DNA from: a virus | Reading direction: 5' to 3' (one strand) | Virus genome (UHGV): UHGV-0071294 | Length of the DNA: 37,551 nucleotides | Shown here: piece by piece, positions 1 through 4,270 of the stretch | How positions within the stretch are numbered: position 1 is the stretch's first letter | Layout: each line of letters begins with the position of its first letter | Notes under the pieces: generated by a model | Told to the model about the DNA's origin: nothing | Seen by the model: the letters and a program-made list of their open reading frames with translations, nothing else | The model's database searches: none | Made by a program: the position numbers and the translations under genes

Positions 1-179
1 TTTAACGACAGGCTATCTATGAACCAGCTACCTCGCCGTGCGCTTTCGCGTTATGCCCTGACTTTTCAGGGATATATCCTTTCAGTAAACTGTCAGTGCC
101 GGATGTTCACCCGTGTCCGGCGCACGCACTCCACTTCACCCGTGGAGAACTCCTTAATTACCAACCCTCAGGAGGGTGA

Positions 180-413
180 ATGTTAAAATCAACTCTTATT
201 GCTAAATGCCTTTATCAAAATCGCATGGTAAGCAGCATTTCAATAGGCGAGTCTGCAGTTAAAAGTATTTTCGAAGAGTACTTTCCCGGGCATGATTTTA
301 ATAAATGGAATACCAAATTACCGCCAGCAGTTTCAACGCGTATTCTGAAAGCAACTGAAAGAGCAAGTACAATTCGCGTTAACTATTTCATTAAAGATTT
401 GTGGGATCTTTGA
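180..413 (+). CDS. hypothetical protein (77 aa)
   Basis: ORF preceded by a strong RBS (GGAGGG about 6 nt upstream); AT-rich relative to the structural genes; no recognisable motif. Confidence 0.4.
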   Translation: MLKSTLIAKCLYQNRMVSSISIGESAVKSIFEEYFPGHDFNKWNTKLPPAVSTRILKATERASTIRVNYFIKDLWDL

Positions 414-798
414 TATCCACAGAGCCTAAAGTATGTGCATATGGATGTGCTATTGTGCGCCCTCGCAGATTTGCATCATTTTCTAAATTCACTGAACGAA
501 ACAGGGCATCAACAAGGCTCTGTACAATGCAAAGGCAATCGAAGACTGTCGCCGTTTCTGTTTTGATTGATGAAAGAACATGGCCATTCACGCAAACAGA
601 AATTACCCGTTTATTAACATCGCTTTCCTGCTTTTGATTATCAGAACCATATAGCCCAGAAAAAGCATTGCGCACATTACAAACCATATTATCGATGGTT
701 TCTTTTTTGGTGTATGCCGGGTCAATTTTCACCAGACTATCACCGAGAGTCGTTGCAGCAATTGTCTGGATTTCTTTTGGTAAATCTTTAAATTCCAT
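391..798 (-). CDS. hypothetical protein (135 aa), distal gene of the leftward operon from the repressor
   Basis: ORF with a GAGG RBS about 8 nt upstream of the ATG; AT-rich; 3' end overlaps the convergent ORF 180..413 by 23 bp. Confidence 0.45.
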   Translation of the reverse strand: MEFKDLPKEIQTIAATTLGDSLVKIDPAYTKKETIDNMVCNVRNAFSGLYGSDNQKQESDVNKRVISVCVNGHVLSSIKTETATVFDCLCIVQSLVDALFRSVNLENDANLRGRTIAHPYAHTLGSVDIKDPTNL

Positions 799-820
799 TA
801 TTAGCCTCGTTGGTTAGCTA

Positions 821-1039
821 TTAACGTGGGTATGTAATCATTCTTGCAATGCTTAATGCCGCTGCTTTTTCCAGCCTGGTGATATCCTGCTCCAGAGCGG
901 ACAGATTTTCAGCCTGCTTAGCCCTGGCTTCATTGGCCCATTTCAGATCCTGCGCTGCATTAATTTTCTGGCGCATCCACTCATAAAGTTCATCATCGGT
1001 ATAGTCTGGCGCGATGATGACGGGTTCTCGTTTCTGCAT
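821..1039 (-). CDS. small hypothetical protein (72 aa), in the position of ydfC in Qin-type prophages
   Basis: ORF co-directional with the repressor; the size and order (51, 42, 72 aa downstream of a DicA-like repressor) mirror ydfA-ydfB-ydfC. Assigned by synteny only. Confidence 0.45.
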   Translation of the reverse strand: MQKREPVIIAPDYTDDELYEWMRQKINAAQDLKWANEARAKQAENLSALEQDITRLEKAAALSIARMITYPR

Positions 1040-1068
1040 ACTGATTCCTCGCGGTGCTGTTTCGCTTA

Positions 1069-1197
1069 TCAGCCGTTAGATTTTGCCGAACTGGAAAGCG
1101 CCTGTTTAAATTCGTTGAAGCTGAGAGCTTCTTCGCCGTCGGCAAGACCTTCGAAGTATTCTTCGTAAGCCTTTTCCATGATTGTGTCGAAATCCAT
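1069..1197 (-). CDS. small acidic protein (42 aa, MDFDTIMEKAYEEYFEGLADGEEALSFNEFKQALSSSAKSNG), ydfB-like by position
   Basis: Translated by hand from the reverse strand; AGGTGA RBS 5 nt upstream of the ATG; too short to appear in the ORF track; the start is coupled to the stop of the upstream gene. Confidence 0.35.
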   Translation of the reverse strand: MDFDTIMEKAYEEYFEGLADGEEALSFNEFKQALSSSAKSNG

Positions 1198-1198
1198 A

Positions 1199-1354
1199 TC
1201 ACTCACCTGAGTTTCTTTCCAGCCAGCGACGGGCACCATTTTCGGTTTTAAACGTTTTGCTTTTGGTATACGTCATCGCGGTGAATGTGCCGTCCTGGTT
1301 GGGAAACACGCCGTACACCAGAGATTCGTTGTTGCCAAGATCGATAGTATCCAT
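1199..1354 (-). CDS. small protein (51 aa, MDTIDLGNNESLVYGVFPNQDGTF...), ydfA-like by position
   Basis: Part of ORF 1199..1408; the internal ATG at 1352-1354 has a GAGG RBS; first gene of the leftward operon. Confidence 0.4.
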   Translation of the reverse strand: MDTIDLGNNESLVYGVFPNQDGTFTAMTYTKSKTFKTENGARRWLERNSGE

Positions 1355-1408
1355 GTTGACCTCATTTCCCCTTAACGCCGGGGTAGCGGAACTGTTTGCT
1401 GAGAACAC

Positions 1409-1557
1409 CGTGCGGTGTCTTGATGAATAAAATTTAGAATAACCTAAGGTGGATGGTCAAGGTTTTTGTGTAGAAAAACCTAAGTTTTTTTGATGTAAAA
1501 AACACAAGTGTTTGAAAGTTTGTGCTTTTTATTACAGGGTGTGGAGAAAAAAGGGGG
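1409..1557. promoter_or_regulatory. Putative promoter/operator region of the leftward small-gene operon
   Basis: Intergenic region between the repressor 3' end and the first small gene; contains CCTAAGG at 1443-1449 and CCTAAG at 1479-1484, the same motif that recurs in the divergent repressor/cro intergenic region. Confidence 0.3.
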
Positions 1558-1965
1558 TTATTTGTTTGCGCTTCTTTTGCGAGCTTTGAGTAGTTCTTCA
1601 AAAAGTTTGTTGAAATTTTCAACTCGAGCACGCATCTCTGACAACAGGGCCTTTTGCTCTGACTCAGGCAGTGCGTCGAACAGTTGAAGTAACTCTTTTT
1701 GATCTTCTGTCAGAATGGCTGGTTGATTATCCGGGAGCGGTTCGCCTGGTTGTTTATCTTCATCCCCAAAAAGAAGCCAAGTCGGTGAGCACTGAAGCGC
1801 TTGGCTCAGTGCGAATAATCTTTTCCCCGCCGGCTGTGTTTCATCTCTTTCCCATTGAGAAATTGTTACGTGAGCCACTTTGACCAGCTTACCTAATGCG
1901 GCCTGAGACAGTTTTAATTTTTTACGCCTATGTAAGAGGCGAGCACCGAAGGTTTCGTTTTTCAT
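1558..1965 (-). CDS. XRE-family HTH repressor, DicA/cI-like (135 aa), with no LexA-type S24 peptidase domain
   Basis: N-terminal HTH (LSQAALGKLVKVAHVTISQWERDETQP); C-terminus recalled as DicA-like (NFNKLFEELLKA); divergent from a Cro-like gene; too short to carry an autocleavage domain. Confidence 0.75.
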   Translation of the reverse strand: MKNETFGARLLHRRKKLKLSQAALGKLVKVAHVTISQWERDETQPAGKRLFALSQALQCSPTWLLFGDEDKQPGEPLPDNQPAILTEDQKELLQLFDALPESEQKALLSEMRARVENFNKLFEELLKARKRSANK

Positions 1966-1986
1966 ATTAGGGAATTCTAATTTTTC

Positions 1987-2034
1987 TTGACTTAGGTTTC
2001 TCTACGATCTAGTTTCCTTAGGAAAATCTAAGGA
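1987..2034 (+). promoter_or_regulatory. Putative rightward promoter (-35 TTGACT, -10 TAGTTT) with an overlapping operator-like inverted repeat CCTTAGG-N5-CTAAGG
   Basis: TTGACT at 1987-1992, a 17-bp spacer and TAGTTT at 2010-2015; the inverted repeat at 2016-2034 lies between the -10 and the RBS of the cro-like gene. Confidence 0.35.
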
Positions 2035-2041
2035 GTTCGAT

Positions 2042-2269
2042 ATGTTGAAAATTGATGCTATAGCGTTTTTTGGCAGCAAAACAAAGCTTGCCAATGCCGC
2101 AGGAGTTAGGCTGGCAAGCATTGCTGCATGGGGGGAACTGGTTCCTGAAGGTCGCGCGATGCGCCTGCAAGAGGCATCCGGCGGGGAACTTCAGTACGAC
2201 CCTAAAGTTTATGACGAATATCGTAAGGCAAAGCGGGCGGGGCGGTTGAACAATGAAAATCACCCCTGA
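2042..2269 (+). CDS. Cro/DicC-like small DNA-binding protein (75 aa)
   Basis: Divergent from the repressor; strong RBS AAGGAG; small basic protein with an HTH-like segment (KLANAAGVRLASIAAW). Confidence 0.6.
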   Translation: MLKIDAIAFFGSKTKLANAAGVRLASIAAWGELVPEGRAMRLQEASGGELQYDPKVYDEYRKAKRAGRLNNENHP

Positions 2270-2804
2270 ACAGGTTTGTGAGGCTCTGGATGCCTGGGTA
2301 TGCCGACCAGGAATGACACAGGAGCAGGCGACGATATTAATCACGGAAGCATTCTGGGCTCTGAAAGAACGCCCGAACATTGATGTTCAACGCGTCACGT
2401 TTGATGATGGCGCGGTTGATCAACGGGCACTGGGCGTTAACCGGGTGAAGATATTCGAACGCTGGAAAGCTATCGACACCAGGGATAAGCGTGAAAAATT
2501 CACGGCGCTGATTCCGGCAATTATGGAGGCTATCCGGATCAGCGATTTCAGGTTGTATTGTGAAATTACTGACGGAAAAAGCATTACGTACATGATCGCC
2601 GGGTTAAACAAAGAATATGGCGATGTGGTGGAGTCCGGGCTGCTTTTTGCGGATCCAGCTGTTGTGGAGCGTGAGACTGACGAGCTTATAGAAAAAGCTA
2701 TTGCTTTCAAGCATGCGTATCGTCAGCAATACCAACATTACTTTGCAGATAAACAAATATCTGTCTGGGGTTCGTATGAGTATCGATGCACTACGATGGG
2801 CTAA
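2253..2804 (+). CDS. CII/YdaT-like phage regulatory protein (183 aa)
   Basis: Position immediately after the cro-like gene with an overlapping start; the family assignment is from memory of YdaT/CII-like proteins and is uncertain. Confidence 0.45.
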   Translation: MKITPEQVCEALDAWVCRPGMTQEQATILITEAFWALKERPNIDVQRVTFDDGAVDQRALGVNRVKIFERWKAIDTRDKREKFTALIPAIMEAIRISDFRLYCEITDGKSITYMIAGLNKEYGDVVESGLLFADPAVVERETDELIEKAIAFKHAYRQQYQHYFADKQISVWGSYEYRCTTMG

Positions 2805-3816
2805 AAAGGTGAAAACCGGCAGTTCATCCAGCAAGTCAGTATTGACCTGGCTTGCTGATATGTGCGGTGCCGATTTGTGTGCATACCCGTCTGTATCTGC
2901 ACTGGCAGAAGTAACGGAACTGAACAAAAAGACTGTGCAGGACAGCTTACGACACCTGATGGAGATTGGGTTAATTGTTGATACCGGTGAGAGAAAAGGC
3001 AGAACAAAGCAAATTGTGGTGTACCGACTTATCGGTGTAGAAGAAAGTGTTGCCGAGCCTGAATACACCCAAAAACGGGAGTCTTTAAAGGTGGGTAAAA
3101 TTGGTGCTGTTAATAAAAACAGTACCGAAAATGGTTATGTTTCAGCACAAAACAGCCCCAAAAACGGAACTCTTAGCTGCATGGAAAATAACCAAAGACA
3201 CCCAAATTTTCCATCAAAGACACCCAAAAACGGATCACGGAACCCAAAGGAACCCAAAGATCTAACCCCCACACATAACGCACGCGAGAGTGCTCCGACC
3301 AGTGAGCAGGAAGTTTTGTCGTTACAGGCAGCACCCCCTGTATTCCTGGGTGGCCTGAGCGAACCCATCGGAAAATTTCCGATGACCGATAGCTGGTATC
3401 CGTCACGGGATTTTCGACGACGGGCTGCGTTGTGGGGGATGGCTTTGCCGGAGACAGAATTTACACCTGCTGAACTTGCCGCCTTCCGGGACTACTGGGC
3501 AGCGGAGGGGAAAGTATTTACGCAGATTCAGTGGGAGCAGAAATTCGCCCGTCACGTAAATCACGTCAGGGCGCAGGTTAAACCAGTCAGCAAGGGGGTG
3601 AACCATGCAGCAGCACCAGGTGGCACCGCATCACGGGCAGTTCAGGAAATTCGGGCAGCACGTGAGCAGTGGGAACGTGAAAACGGATTTATCAGCGACG
3701 GAAACGGCCTGGAAGCTGTGGGAACTCATGGGGGAGGTTTATTCGAACCGCTGGACTCAGAAGAACGGGGCCGCACCTTCGAAGCTCTGGATTGCACAGA
3801 TTGGCGCGATGACTGA
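2776..3816 (+). CDS. Replication initiation protein (O-like N-terminal HTH, DnaT-like C-terminal domain)
   Basis: N-terminus MSIDALRWAKK...LTWLADMCGA; C-terminal region DSWYPSRDFRRRAALWGM...FTQIQWEQKFARHVNHV resembles the DnaT-like domain of phage replication proteins. The start at 2776 is chosen within ORF 2701..3816. The last ~70 codons are low-complexity and overlap the next gene. Confidence 0.65.
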   Translation: MSIDALRWAKKVKTGSSSSKSVLTWLADMCGADLCAYPSVSALAEVTELNKKTVQDSLRHLMEIGLIVDTGERKGRTKQIVVYRLIGVEESVAEPEYTQKRESLKVGKIGAVNKNSTENGYVSAQNSPKNGTLSCMENNQRHPNFPSKTPKNGSRNPKEPKDLTPTHNARESAPTSEQEVLSLQAAPPVFLGGLSEPIGKFPMTDSWYPSRDFRRRAALWGMALPETEFTPAELAAFRDYWAAEGKVFTQIQWEQKFARHVNHVRAQVKPVSKGVNHAAAPGGTASRAVQEIRAAREQWERENGFISDGNGLEAVGTHGGGLFEPLDSEERGRTFEALDCTDWRDD

Positions 3817-4270
3817 GCAGCAAATCCGGCAGGTCTGCCGCCAGTGCATGGACCGTTGCAGGGCAGGTGAAACATGGCCTCCGGACCTGGCTGAGTTTGT
3901 GGCGCTGATTTCGGAGAGCGGGGCAAATCCATTTGGTCTGACGGTGGATAACGTGATGGAGGAGTACCGACGCTGGCGCAACGAGTCCTGGCGATACGAC
4001 GGAAGCGATAAATACCCGTGGTCTCAGCCTGTGCTGTATCACATTTGTCTCGAGATGCGTTCAAAGGGGATTGAGCGCCAGATGACCGAAGGGGAATTAA
4101 AACGGCTTGCAGAACGGCAACTGACGAAATGGGCAAAGCATGTTGGTAACGGACTGAGTGTTCCACCCGTCCGTAGGCAACTGGCAGCACCCATACGTCC
4201 TGCGGGACCAACGCCAATTGAGTTGCTGAAACAGGAATATGAACGCAGGAAAGCGGCAGGTTTTGTTTGA
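3605..4270 (+). CDS. Replication protein P-like (helicase loader)
   Basis: Segments TWPPDLAEFVAL, YPWSQPVLYHI and TEGELKRLAERQL parallel lambda P (PGQFVAWC, YPWKSNAHYWLV, TDAELRRKAADEL); good RBS (GGGGGTG) before the ATG at 3605. Overlaps the preceding gene by 212 bp. Confidence 0.65.
   Translation: MQQHQVAPHHGQFRKFGQHVSSGNVKTDLSATETAWKLWELMGEVYSNRWTQKNGAAPSKLWIAQIGAMTEQQIRQVCRQCMDRCRAGETWPPDLAEFVALISESGANPFGLTVDNVMEEYRRWRNESWRYDGSDKYPWSQPVLYHICLEMRSKGIERQMTEGELKRLAERQLTKWAKHVGNGLSVPPVRRQLAAPIRPAGPTPIELLKQEYERRKAAGFV

What the first reader, a model, noticed from the sequence alone, without database searches (positions are those of the whole stretch)
180..798. AT-rich convergent gene pair at the distal end of the repressor-side operon, a candidate exclusion or defence locus
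Two ORFs of unknown function (77 aa on +, 135 aa on -) overlap convergently by 23 bp. They lie in the position, downstream of the repressor and co-transcribed small genes, where lambdoid phages typically carry superinfection-exclusion or abortive-infection genes, and their composition is visibly more AT-rich than the phage backbone. The window edge truncates the context.
Basis: inference. Interest (0 to 1): 0.45.

Follow-up and report, generated by a model that had tools for sequence, protein, structure and literature searches.

The report
Conserved convergent prophage gene pair
The two overlapping ORFs are real genes forming a two-gene accessory cassette that is conserved in lambda-like prophages of many enteric bacteria and sits where other phages carry the exclusion gene sieB, but no known family matches them and their function is untested.

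Summary
ORF77 (180-413, +) and ORF135 (391-798, -) converge with a 23-bp overlap, in the most AT-rich 619 bp of the window.

- **Both are real genes.** ORF77 has 77-aa homologues at 55-72% identity in at least ten enterobacterial genera and evolves under purifying selection. Its model is a very confident five-helix fold with no structural relative.
- **They form a unit.** In all 90 intact phage loci examined, an ORF77 homologue converges on a roughly 77-aa partner domain with a 23- or 26-bp overlap. That domain is the C-terminal half of ORF135.
- **The unit is an accessory cassette.** It is absent from K-12 Qin, present in 676 of 5,426 complete E. coli genomes, and replaced by other convergent cassettes at the same site.
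- **It is not at the operon's end.** DicF, dicB, an exonuclease, xis and int follow to the left of the window.
- **Position matches sieB.** ORF77 lies where lambda and Rac carry sieB, but it shows no homology to SieB or to any Pfam, NCBIfam or PADLOC model.

My best inference is a prophage-expressed effector (ORF77) paired with an early-expressed cognate neutraliser (the partner domain). That inference is untested. The defence reading is partly supported, by position only.

The parts
180..413 (+). ORF77: 77-aa soluble protein, member of phrog_10348 (unknown function), modelled as a five-helix bundle. It runs counter to the early-left operon.
   Evidence: ORF; phrog_10348, E 1e-47; 33 homologues, 20 invariant columns; pN/pS 0.34 in frame; pLDDT 96.8, pTM 0.86; no fold relative outside its own family.
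391..798 (-). ORF135: 135-aa protein of the PL-like (dicB-type) early operon, member of phrog_1363. It is a fusion of an N-terminal helical hairpin and the partner domain.
   Evidence: model pLDDT 75; helices 8-23 and 32-51, disordered 51-60, then a beta-beta-alpha-alpha domain; purifying selection between alleles.
391..612 (-). Partner domain (ORF135 residues 63-135). It is homologous to stand-alone 75-80-aa proteins that converge on ORF77 homologues in other genera.
   Evidence: (112 family members).
625..798 (-). N-terminal domain (residues 1-58, MEFKDLP...). It is shared with E. coli proteins that carry unrelated C-termini at the same locus.
   Evidence: phrog_9419, 2151, 6937, 33007 match residues 1-55 to 1-72.
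391..413 (.). 23-bp 3'-3' overlap of the two coding sequences. The overlap and relative frame are conserved (23 or 26 bp) in every intact phage locus examined.
   Evidence: 90 loci.
169..802 (.). Accessory block (both genes plus both ribosome-binding sites) that is absent from K-12 Qin between ydfC and the dicF leader.
   Evidence: alignment A2, junctions ...CAACGAGGCT|AATAATGG and CCAACCCT|CAGGAGGG; 676 of 5,426 genomes.
181..414 (.). Sub-cassette equal to the ORF77 coding sequence. In a rare allele it is replaced by a 73-codon extension of the minus-strand gene plus an unrelated convergent 63-aa ORF.
   Evidence: alignment A1; 8 of 5,426 genomes.
95..179 (+). Structured region upstream of ORF77. 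The E. coli + strand RNA folds into three hairpins, and the third pairs the ribosome-binding site (171-176). This may be the ORF77 5'UTR. The promoter has not been identified.
   Evidence: (z -3.10, 0 of 200 shuffles fold as well) against (- strand z 0.11); (mixed results in other genera).
1..168 (-). Conserved GC-rich leader of the dicF-dicB part of the operon, in the PL sense. DicF itself lies about 155 nt beyond the left edge of the window.
   Evidence: (no Rfam match inside window 1-3000).
821..1039 (-). ydfC homologue, immediately upstream of ORF135 in the same operon.
   Evidence: (phrog_1744).
1069..1408 (-). ydfB-like (1069-1239) and ydfA/DUF1391 (1199-1408) small promoter-proximal genes.
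   Evidence: PF07151, E 4e-28.
1431..1460 (-). Promoter-like site (TTGACC-18-TAAATT) in the position of the dicB-operon (PL-like) promoter.
   Evidence: That it is repressed by DicA is taken from established knowledge of the K-12 dicB operon, not tested here.
1558..1965 (-). DicA-like HTH repressor.
   Evidence: HTH_3, E 8e-14.

Best explanation
**Shown.** ORF77 and the C-terminal partner domain of ORF135 form one conserved two-gene accessory cassette of lambdoid prophages.
- ORF135 is made from the early-left (PL or dicB-type) operon, which the DicA-like repressor is expected to keep off in a lysogen.
- ORF77 is encoded on the opposite strand and converges on ORF135 with a fixed 23-bp overlap.
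- It occupies the slot that sieB occupies in lambda and Rac.

**Inferred mechanism.** ORF77 is transcribed on its own in the lysogen and acts as the effector, most likely excluding or aborting incoming lambdoid phages. The partner domain is its cognate neutraliser.

The partner is among the first products of PL, so it would appear immediately when the resident prophage is induced or a phage carrying the cassette infects. PL transcription also reads antisense through all of ORF77, which would silence it at the same moment. The phage would thereby escape its own weapon, giving defence with cognate self-immunity.

The variable N-terminal modules fused to the partner domain (the MEFKDLP domain in E. 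coli, a ClpX-type zinc finger elsewhere, or none) would be accessory.
For: **Genes are real.** The ORF77 model has pLDDT 96.8.

**Coupling.**
- In 90 of 90 intact phage loci found through ORF77, the partner domain is convergent with a 23- or 26-bp overlap (also 26-31, 90-93).
- The loci come from Escherichia, Serratia, Klebsiella or Raoultella, Dickeya, Proteus, Photorhabdus, Yersinia and uncultured phage (IMG/VR) contigs. Their flanking genes differ (RdgC, YfdP, DUF2303, dicF-dicB).
- Pairwise identities of the two proteins correlate (r 0.73 between lineages). ORF77 is the more conserved: 63% against 40%.

**Asymmetry.**
- The partner domain occurs without ORF77 in the 201-aa allele and in Citrobacter locus L101.
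- ORF77 is frameshifted beside an intact partner in L002, L017 and L098.
- ORF77 without a partner was seen only in one distant, non-phage locus (L018).

**Early expression of the partner.** It is the first gene after a PL-like promoter (TTGACC-18-TATTAT) next to the cI-type repressor in Klebsiella. The arrangement is similar in Serratia, Dickeya and Yersinia.

**Accessory nature.** Lowest GC in the window, an indel relative to Qin, and cassette swapping at exact coding-sequence boundaries.

**sieB-equivalent topology.**

**Literature.** Genes antisense to lytic operons are described as characteristic of prophage accessory loci, and P22 sieB is modulated by an antisense RNA (PMC7067206).

**E. 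coli upstream RNA.** It is strand-specifically stable, with the ribosome-binding site paired.
Against: - No phenotype, expression data or interaction data exist. A binding prediction for the two proteins could not be run.
- No convincing promoter was found upstream of ORF77 in E. coli. My best manual candidate is TTTTCA-17-TAAACT at 63-91, which matches only 8 of 12 positions.
- The TGnTAnnnT motif seen in other genera reads TGGAGAACT in E. coli.
- RNA strand evidence outside E. coli is mixed.
- There is no match to any defence model or to SieB.
- The co-occurrence asymmetry could reflect physical linkage, because the genes overlap, rather than functional dependence.
- The same architecture fits the opposite polarity equally well, with the partner as effector and ORF77 as antidote.
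Confidence: 0.33

Rival explanations
1. Reverse polarity. The partner domain is an early, host-directed effector comparable to kil or dicB. ORF77 is a prophage-expressed antidote that buffers leaky PL expression, or that protects the lysogen from the same effector brought in by related superinfecting phages.
For: The cassette logic resembles variable-effector plus cognate-immunity swapping. A constant N-terminal domain carries variable C-terminal domains, each with its own convergent small ORF: ORF77, a 63-aa ORF, or a 69/73-aa ORF. The partner lies in an operon that encodes the division inhibitors DicF and DicB.
Against: ORF77 is the more conserved member (63% against 40%), which is more typical of an effector than of an immunity protein. 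Orphan antidotes would be harmless, yet none was seen in phage contexts. Frameshifted ORF77 beside an intact partner persists, although repression of PL in lysogens could make that tolerable.
Confidence: 0.2
2. Regulatory antisense pair. The main role of the counter-transcript is RNA-level control of the early-left operon through convergent transcription or 3'-overlap duplexes, in the manner of lambda OOP on cII. It would tune expression of the partner, DicF and dicB, or the lysis-lysogeny decision. The ORF77 protein would be secondary.
For: The 3'-3' overlap has a strictly conserved register. The upstream region is conserved and structured. OOP is a precedent for an antisense RNA overlapping the 3' end of an immunity-region gene (PMC7067206).
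Against: ORF77 is clearly under protein-level purifying selection and has a very confident fold, so the protein matters. Replacing ORF77 with unrelated coding cassettes would not preserve a specific RNA duplex.
Confidence: 0.15
3. Toxin-antitoxin-like addiction module that stabilises the prophage.
For: There are two small co-occurring proteins, one more conserved than the other. Bona fide TA modules (ParE/PaaA2, HigB) are inserted nearby in related prophages, so the region tolerates such cargo.
Against: The genes are convergent, not co-transcribed. No TA family matches in Pfam. With PL repressed, the presumed antitoxin would not be made in the lysogen.
Confidence: 0.1
4. Two functionally unrelated hypothetical genes that are merely neighbours. 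The overlap would be a frozen accident kept by tight linkage.
For: There is no direct evidence of interaction. Overlapping genes are hard to separate by recombination.
Against: The pairing and overlap register survive divergence to 55-60% (ORF77) and 30-45% (partner) identity across many genera. Everything around them is reshuffled, and the minus-strand gene itself is a mosaic of recombined segments.
Confidence: 0.1

Closest known systems
SieB superinfection-exclusion gene of lambda, P22 and Rac
   Same: The genomic slot and orientation match. SieB is counter-transcribed inside the early-left operon. It converges on the promoter-proximal small gene (N in lambda, ydaF/DUF1391 in Rac). It lies upstream of the kil or division-inhibitor genes and their small RNA (kilS in Rac, DicF here). 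In P22 the system includes self-immunity modulated by an antisense RNA (PMC7067206).
   Different: There is no sequence similarity (hhalign probability 0.1-0.3%). From general knowledge, SieB is a membrane protein; the lambda and Rac copies are 184 and 162 aa. ORF77 is a 77-aa soluble helical bundle. SieB has no dedicated convergent protein partner.
Prophage defence with cognate self-immunity (for example BstA and its aba element in Salmonella phage BTP1; recalled from memory, not tested here)
   Same: It is a repressor-proximal accessory locus expressed from the prophage, and the resident phage carries its own escape determinant.
   Different: As I recall them, BstA is a large single protein and its immunity determinant is a DNA element inside the gene. 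Here the proposed immunity is a separate early protein, possibly helped by antisense transcription. No homology was detected to any Pfam, NCBIfam or PADLOC model; BstA itself was not compared directly.
dicB operon of the Qin prophage (ydfA-ydfB-ydfC-dicF-dicB-ydfD)
   Same: ORF135 lies in this operon, between ydfC and the dicF leader. The flanks are 90-99% identical to the operon in thousands of E. coli genomes.
   Different: The K-12 prototype has nothing at this position. The cassette is an optional insert found in about 12% of complete E. coli genomes.
Lambda OOP RNA and cII (3'-overlapping antisense pair)
   Same: It is a convergent transcript overlapping the 3' end of an immunity-region gene.
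   Different: OOP is a short non-coding RNA. Here the counter-transcript encodes a conserved protein.
Morons (independently transcribed accessory genes of lambdoid phages)
   Same: The composition is distinct, the block is present or absent between otherwise near-identical phages, and ORF77 is oriented against the surrounding lytic operon.
   Different: The ORF77 promoter and terminator are not established. Half of the unit (ORF135) is part of the lytic operon rather than a self-contained transcription unit.

Membership tests
SieB superinfection exclusion | Sequence homology to SieB | tested here: not met
   hhalign of the ORF77 family profile against lambda and Rac SieB gave probabilities of 0.33% and 0.14%. 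No Pfam match.
SieB superinfection exclusion | Membrane protein of roughly 160-190 aa | tested here: not met
   ORF77 is 77 aa with GRAVY -0.13. The model shows five short amphipathic helices, none long enough to span a membrane.
SieB superinfection exclusion | Counter-oriented gene converging on promoter-proximal early-left genes | tested here: met
SieB superinfection exclusion | Abortive or exclusion phenotype against superinfecting phage | not testable with these tools
   Needs plaque assays.
Known anti-phage defence systems (PADLOC-DB v2) | Match to any defence protein model | tested here: not met
   Zero families at E <= 1 for ORF77, ORF135, ydfC and ORF 19-186.
Type II toxin-antitoxin | Co-directional bicistronic operon | tested here: not met
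   The genes are convergent in all loci.
Type II toxin-antitoxin | Homology to a known toxin or antitoxin family | tested here: not met
   No Pfam or NCBIfam hits. Only zf-C4_ClpX appears, in 4 of 81 partner-family members.
Type II toxin-antitoxin | Toxicity of one product neutralised by the other | not testable with these tools
   Needs expression experiments.
Moron (accessory transcription unit) | Present or absent between closely related phages, with deviant base composition | tested here: met
Moron (accessory transcription unit) | Own promoter and terminator | tested here: inconclusive
   No site reaching the scan's threshold lies just upstream of ORF77 in E. coli. A TGnTAnnnT motif is conserved in other genera. 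No terminator was found.
dicB (PL-like) operon gene | Same strand as, and contiguous with, ydfA-ydfC and dicF-dicB | tested here: met
   This holds for ORF135 only. It starts 22 nt after ydfC, and DicF and dicB follow in relatives.

The most novel reading that the evidence does not exclude
This is a previously undescribed, widespread family of prophage exclusion or abortive-infection systems built as a 3'-overlapping convergent gene pair. A small effector with a novel fold (ORF77) is made in the lysogen. It is switched off on induction or infection in two ways: by an early PL-encoded neutraliser protein, and by the antisense transcript that encodes that protein. This would be a genetically hard-wired self-immunity design. 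The ydfC-dicF site would then be a hotspot carrying alternative effector-neutraliser cassettes.
Probability: 0.25. Interest if true: 0.7.

Novelty: new member of a known kind. Interest (0 to 1): 0.5.

Why it matters
About one in eight complete E. coli genomes carries this pair, including O157:H7, O121, O26 and O145 strains and prophages at the ompW site in Stx2a-phage-carrying strains (PPompW). So do prophages of many other enterobacterial genera. Every copy seen here is labelled only as hypothetical.

If the pair is an exclusion system with built-in self-immunity, three things would follow.
- It would add a new protein family, with a new fold, to the prophage defence repertoire.
- It would explain why a counter-oriented gene is so persistently kept in this slot of the immunity region.
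- It would mark the ydfC-dicF junction as a cassette hotspot worth mining.

If it is instead a regulator of the DicF-DicB operon, it bears on how prophage-encoded division inhibitors are kept silent. Both readings are directly testable with simple genetics.

Tried and rejected
**Family and structure searches that found nothing**
- Pfam, NCBIfam and PADLOC scans of both proteins gave nothing significant. PHROGs gave only unknown-function families.
- Profile searches against PDB sequences found nothing.
- Foldseek against BFVD returned only a member of ORF77's own family.
- AFDB50 was unavailable.

**Homology ideas rejected**
- ORF77 against SieB of lambda and Rac: rejected.
- ORF77 against the 63-aa ORF of the alternative allele: rejected.
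- The exhaustive representative search returned two long repetitive proteins (P0086, P0103) with 7-8 weak matches to the partner domain. I judged these low-complexity artefacts.

**A reading I reversed.** I first took ORF135 to be a truncated form of the 201-aa protein. I dropped that reading for two reasons:
- Stand-alone partners in other genera end at the same point as ORF135.
- The 201-aa allele is rare, in 8 genomes against 676.

**Other dead ends**
- Rfam found no RNA family in window 1-3000.
- A charge-complementarity test (acidic against basic) showed no pattern.
- The search for related loci with the partner alignment failed for lack of a conserved stretch.
- The species-representative genome scan with ORF77 gave only four loci.
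- The strand test of the upstream hairpins favours the + strand in E. coli, with G.U patterns that agree. It is inconsistent in other genera.
- Literature searches for the peptide sequences and for the ydfC-dicF interval found no description of these genes.

Full report
**1. The observation**

The ORF table shows 180..413 (+, 77 aa) and 391..798 (-, 135 aa), which share bases 391-413. This is a 23-bp convergent overlap, as reported. Both have ribosome-binding sites: GGAGGG at 171-176 for ORF77, and GAGG 6 nt before the ORF135 start.

The interval has GC 0.386, against 0.511 for the window. No 619-bp window sampled every 50 bp is as AT-rich.

**2. Setting**

The window is a Qin/DicA-type lambdoid prophage of E. 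coli. On the minus strand lie, in order:
- a DicA-like HTH repressor (1558-1965);
- a promoter-like site (1460-1431);
- ydfA/DUF1391, ydfB-like and ydfC genes;
- ORF135.

Relatives that are 97-99% identical extend leftward (phage Evi as L001, E. coli TUM1881 as L002). They show that the operon continues with the DicF sRNA (Rfam 76 bits), dicB or kil, a DUF1482 gene, an exonuclease, xis and int. The pair is therefore in the middle of the early-left operon, not at its distal end.

**3. Both ORFs are genes**

*ORF77*
- It belongs to phrog_10348.
- It has 33 homologues, nearly all exactly 77 aa, at 55-72% identity. Source names include Klebsiella, Raoultella, Dickeya, Xenorhabdus, Salmonella, Morganella, Yersinia and Serratia.
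- Between lineages pN/pS is 0.34 in its frame. Four of the five other frames give 0.98-1.58. The remaining one, an antisense frame, gives 0.43.
- Its AlphaFold model is a five-helix bundle with pLDDT 96.8 and pTM 0.86.

*ORF135*
- It belongs to phrog_1363.
- E. coli alleles differ in mosaic segments, with pN/pS 0.27-0.44.
- Its model (pLDDT 75) has an N-terminal helical hairpin, a disordered linker, and a C-terminal beta-beta-alpha-alpha domain.
- It has no meaningful structural neighbour.

**4. The pair is a conserved unit**

In Serratia, Klebsiella and Dickeya prophages, the ORF77 homologue converges on a 77-79-aa gene with the same 23-bp overlap. That gene is homologous to residues 63-135 of ORF135.

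An HMM scan of all fetched loci found the partner domain on the opposite strand in all 90 loci where both genes are intact. The stop-to-stop overlap is 23 bp, or 26 bp where ORF77 has 78 codons.

The partner family has 112 members in a dozen or more enterobacterial genera. In several phages the partner is the first gene after the PL-type promoter next to a cI/S24 repressor.

N-terminal additions to the partner domain vary:
- none;
- the MEFKDLP domain, in E. coli;
- a ClpX-type C4 zinc finger that scores above Pfam's threshold. Two of the three zinc-finger loci examined still converge on ORF77 homologues.

ORF77 is more conserved than its partner: 63% against 40% mean identity between lineages. 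Their divergences correlate, with r 0.73.

The dependence looks asymmetric.
- The partner occurs without ORF77.
- ORF77 is sometimes frameshifted beside an intact partner.
- An ORF77-like gene without a partner was seen only in a distant, non-phage locus.

**5. It is an accessory cassette at a variable site**

K-12 Qin goes directly from ydfC into the dicF leader, so window ~169-802 is an indel with sharp junctions. The block occurs in 676 of 5,426 complete E. coli genomes, whereas its flanks occur in 4,159.

Other alleles occupy the same site:
- A rare allele (8 genomes) replaces exactly the ORF77 coding sequence (181-414). In its place are a 73-codon extension of the minus-strand gene and an unrelated convergent 63-aa ORF, again with a 23-bp overlap and the same ribosome-binding site.
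- Further alleles keep the N-terminal domain but carry other C-termini, one of them with another convergent small ORF.

**6. Comparison with known systems**

In lambda, sieB (+) abuts N (-). In Rac, sieB (+) overlaps ydaF/DUF1391 (-) by 4 bp and precedes the kilS sRNA and kilR. ORF77 has the same topology relative to the ydfA-C/ORF135 genes and to DicF and dicB.

ORF77 is not homologous to SieB, is small and soluble, and matches no PADLOC model. So it may work like a sieB-slot gene, but it is not a member of that family.

The literature held here describes genes antisense to lytic operons as typical accessory loci. It also describes antisense control of P22 sieB and lambda cII (PMC7067206). 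No paper mentioning these proteins was found.

**7. Expression clues**

The roughly 85 nt upstream of ORF77 is conserved across genera and persists in K-12. In E. coli the + strand RNA is unusually stable (z -3.1, against 0.1 for the other strand) and pairs the ribosome-binding site. G.U patterns also favour the + strand.

Other genera give mixed results, and no convincing E. coli promoter was found. Independent transcription of ORF77 is therefore likely but not shown.

**8. Interpretation**

Shown: this is a real, conserved, separable two-gene cassette. Its halves are under opposite transcriptional regimes and are locked together by a fixed 3' overlap.

Inferred: the two products are cognate. 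Most likely ORF77 is a prophage-expressed exclusion effector, and the partner is an early-expressed neutraliser reinforced by antisense transcription from PL (confidence about 0.33).

The rivals are the opposite polarity, a mainly RNA-level regulatory role, an addiction module, and mere neighbourhood.

Noticed in passing
window 95-179 (also L011 4925-5000, L007 4925-5000, and K-12 Qin L006 ~2060-2140 on the other strand): A ~85-nt element just upstream of ORF77 is conserved across genera and retained in K-12 Qin, which lacks the pair. It forms hairpins, with GCCUG/CAGGC changing to GCCGGG/CCCGGC in Serratia. In E. coli the + strand fold is significant and pairs the ORF77 ribosome-binding site. 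It could be the ORF77 5'UTR or part of the DicF precursor.
   Followed up: partly
L011 4874-4922 (-), L003 5103-5154 (+): Sub-threshold DicF matches (30 and 32 bits, gathering score 48) lie directly downstream of the pair in the PL sense, including in a Klebsiella prophage. This suggests divergent DicF-like sRNAs travel with this region outside E. coli.
   Followed up: no
L104 3001-3471, L105 3001-3402, L101 3001-3420: In some phages the partner domain is fused to an N-terminal ClpX-type C4 zinc finger (PF06689, 34-39 bits against a cutoff of 27). This hints at a link to ClpXP or to zinc-finger dimerisation.
   Followed up: partly
L004 2694-3172, L100 1681-2152, L099 821-1488: In related prophages, toxin-antitoxin modules (PaaA2/ParE, HigB with an HTH partner) are inserted between the DicA-like repressor and ydfA. 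This is a second cargo hotspot in the same operon.
   Followed up: no
window 1069-1408 versus L002 5131-5331: In many E. coli relatives the ydfA/ydfB segment of the window is replaced by a + strand 'ECs_2282 family putative zinc-binding protein' gene. This explains the 84% coverage of the best genome hits.
   Followed up: partly
L018 3989-4228: A 79-aa ORF in a Psychrosphaera MAG is 43% identical to ORF77. It lies between a chemotaxis receptor gene and a glycosidase gene, with no partner and no phage context.
   Followed up: partly
window 19-186 (+): A 55-aa ORF overlaps the ORF77 start by 7 bp. It lies in the conserved GC-rich dicF leader and has no PHROG, Pfam, NCBIfam or PADLOC hit, so it is probably not a gene.
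   Followed up: partly
L105 2358-2882: A HIRAN-domain gene sits immediately downstream of the cI-type repressor, in the rexAB-like position, in one phage that carries the pair.
   Followed up: no
window 708-798 (ORF135 codons ~1-31): ORF135 is itself mosaic. O157, O121 and similar strains match the window only up to about position 707. Alleles with a different N-terminal segment (MEFKDLPTPLQEMASNIVRSQL...) or a different central segment are combined with nearly identical ORF77.
   Followed up: partly
L001 3684-3711 (+): A promoter-like site (TTAACA-16-GAGAAT) on the ORF77 strand lies just beyond the window's left edge. It points through the antisense of DicF towards ORF77, about 470 nt away. 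Phage Evi annotates a + strand ORF there (3694-3885).
   Followed up: no
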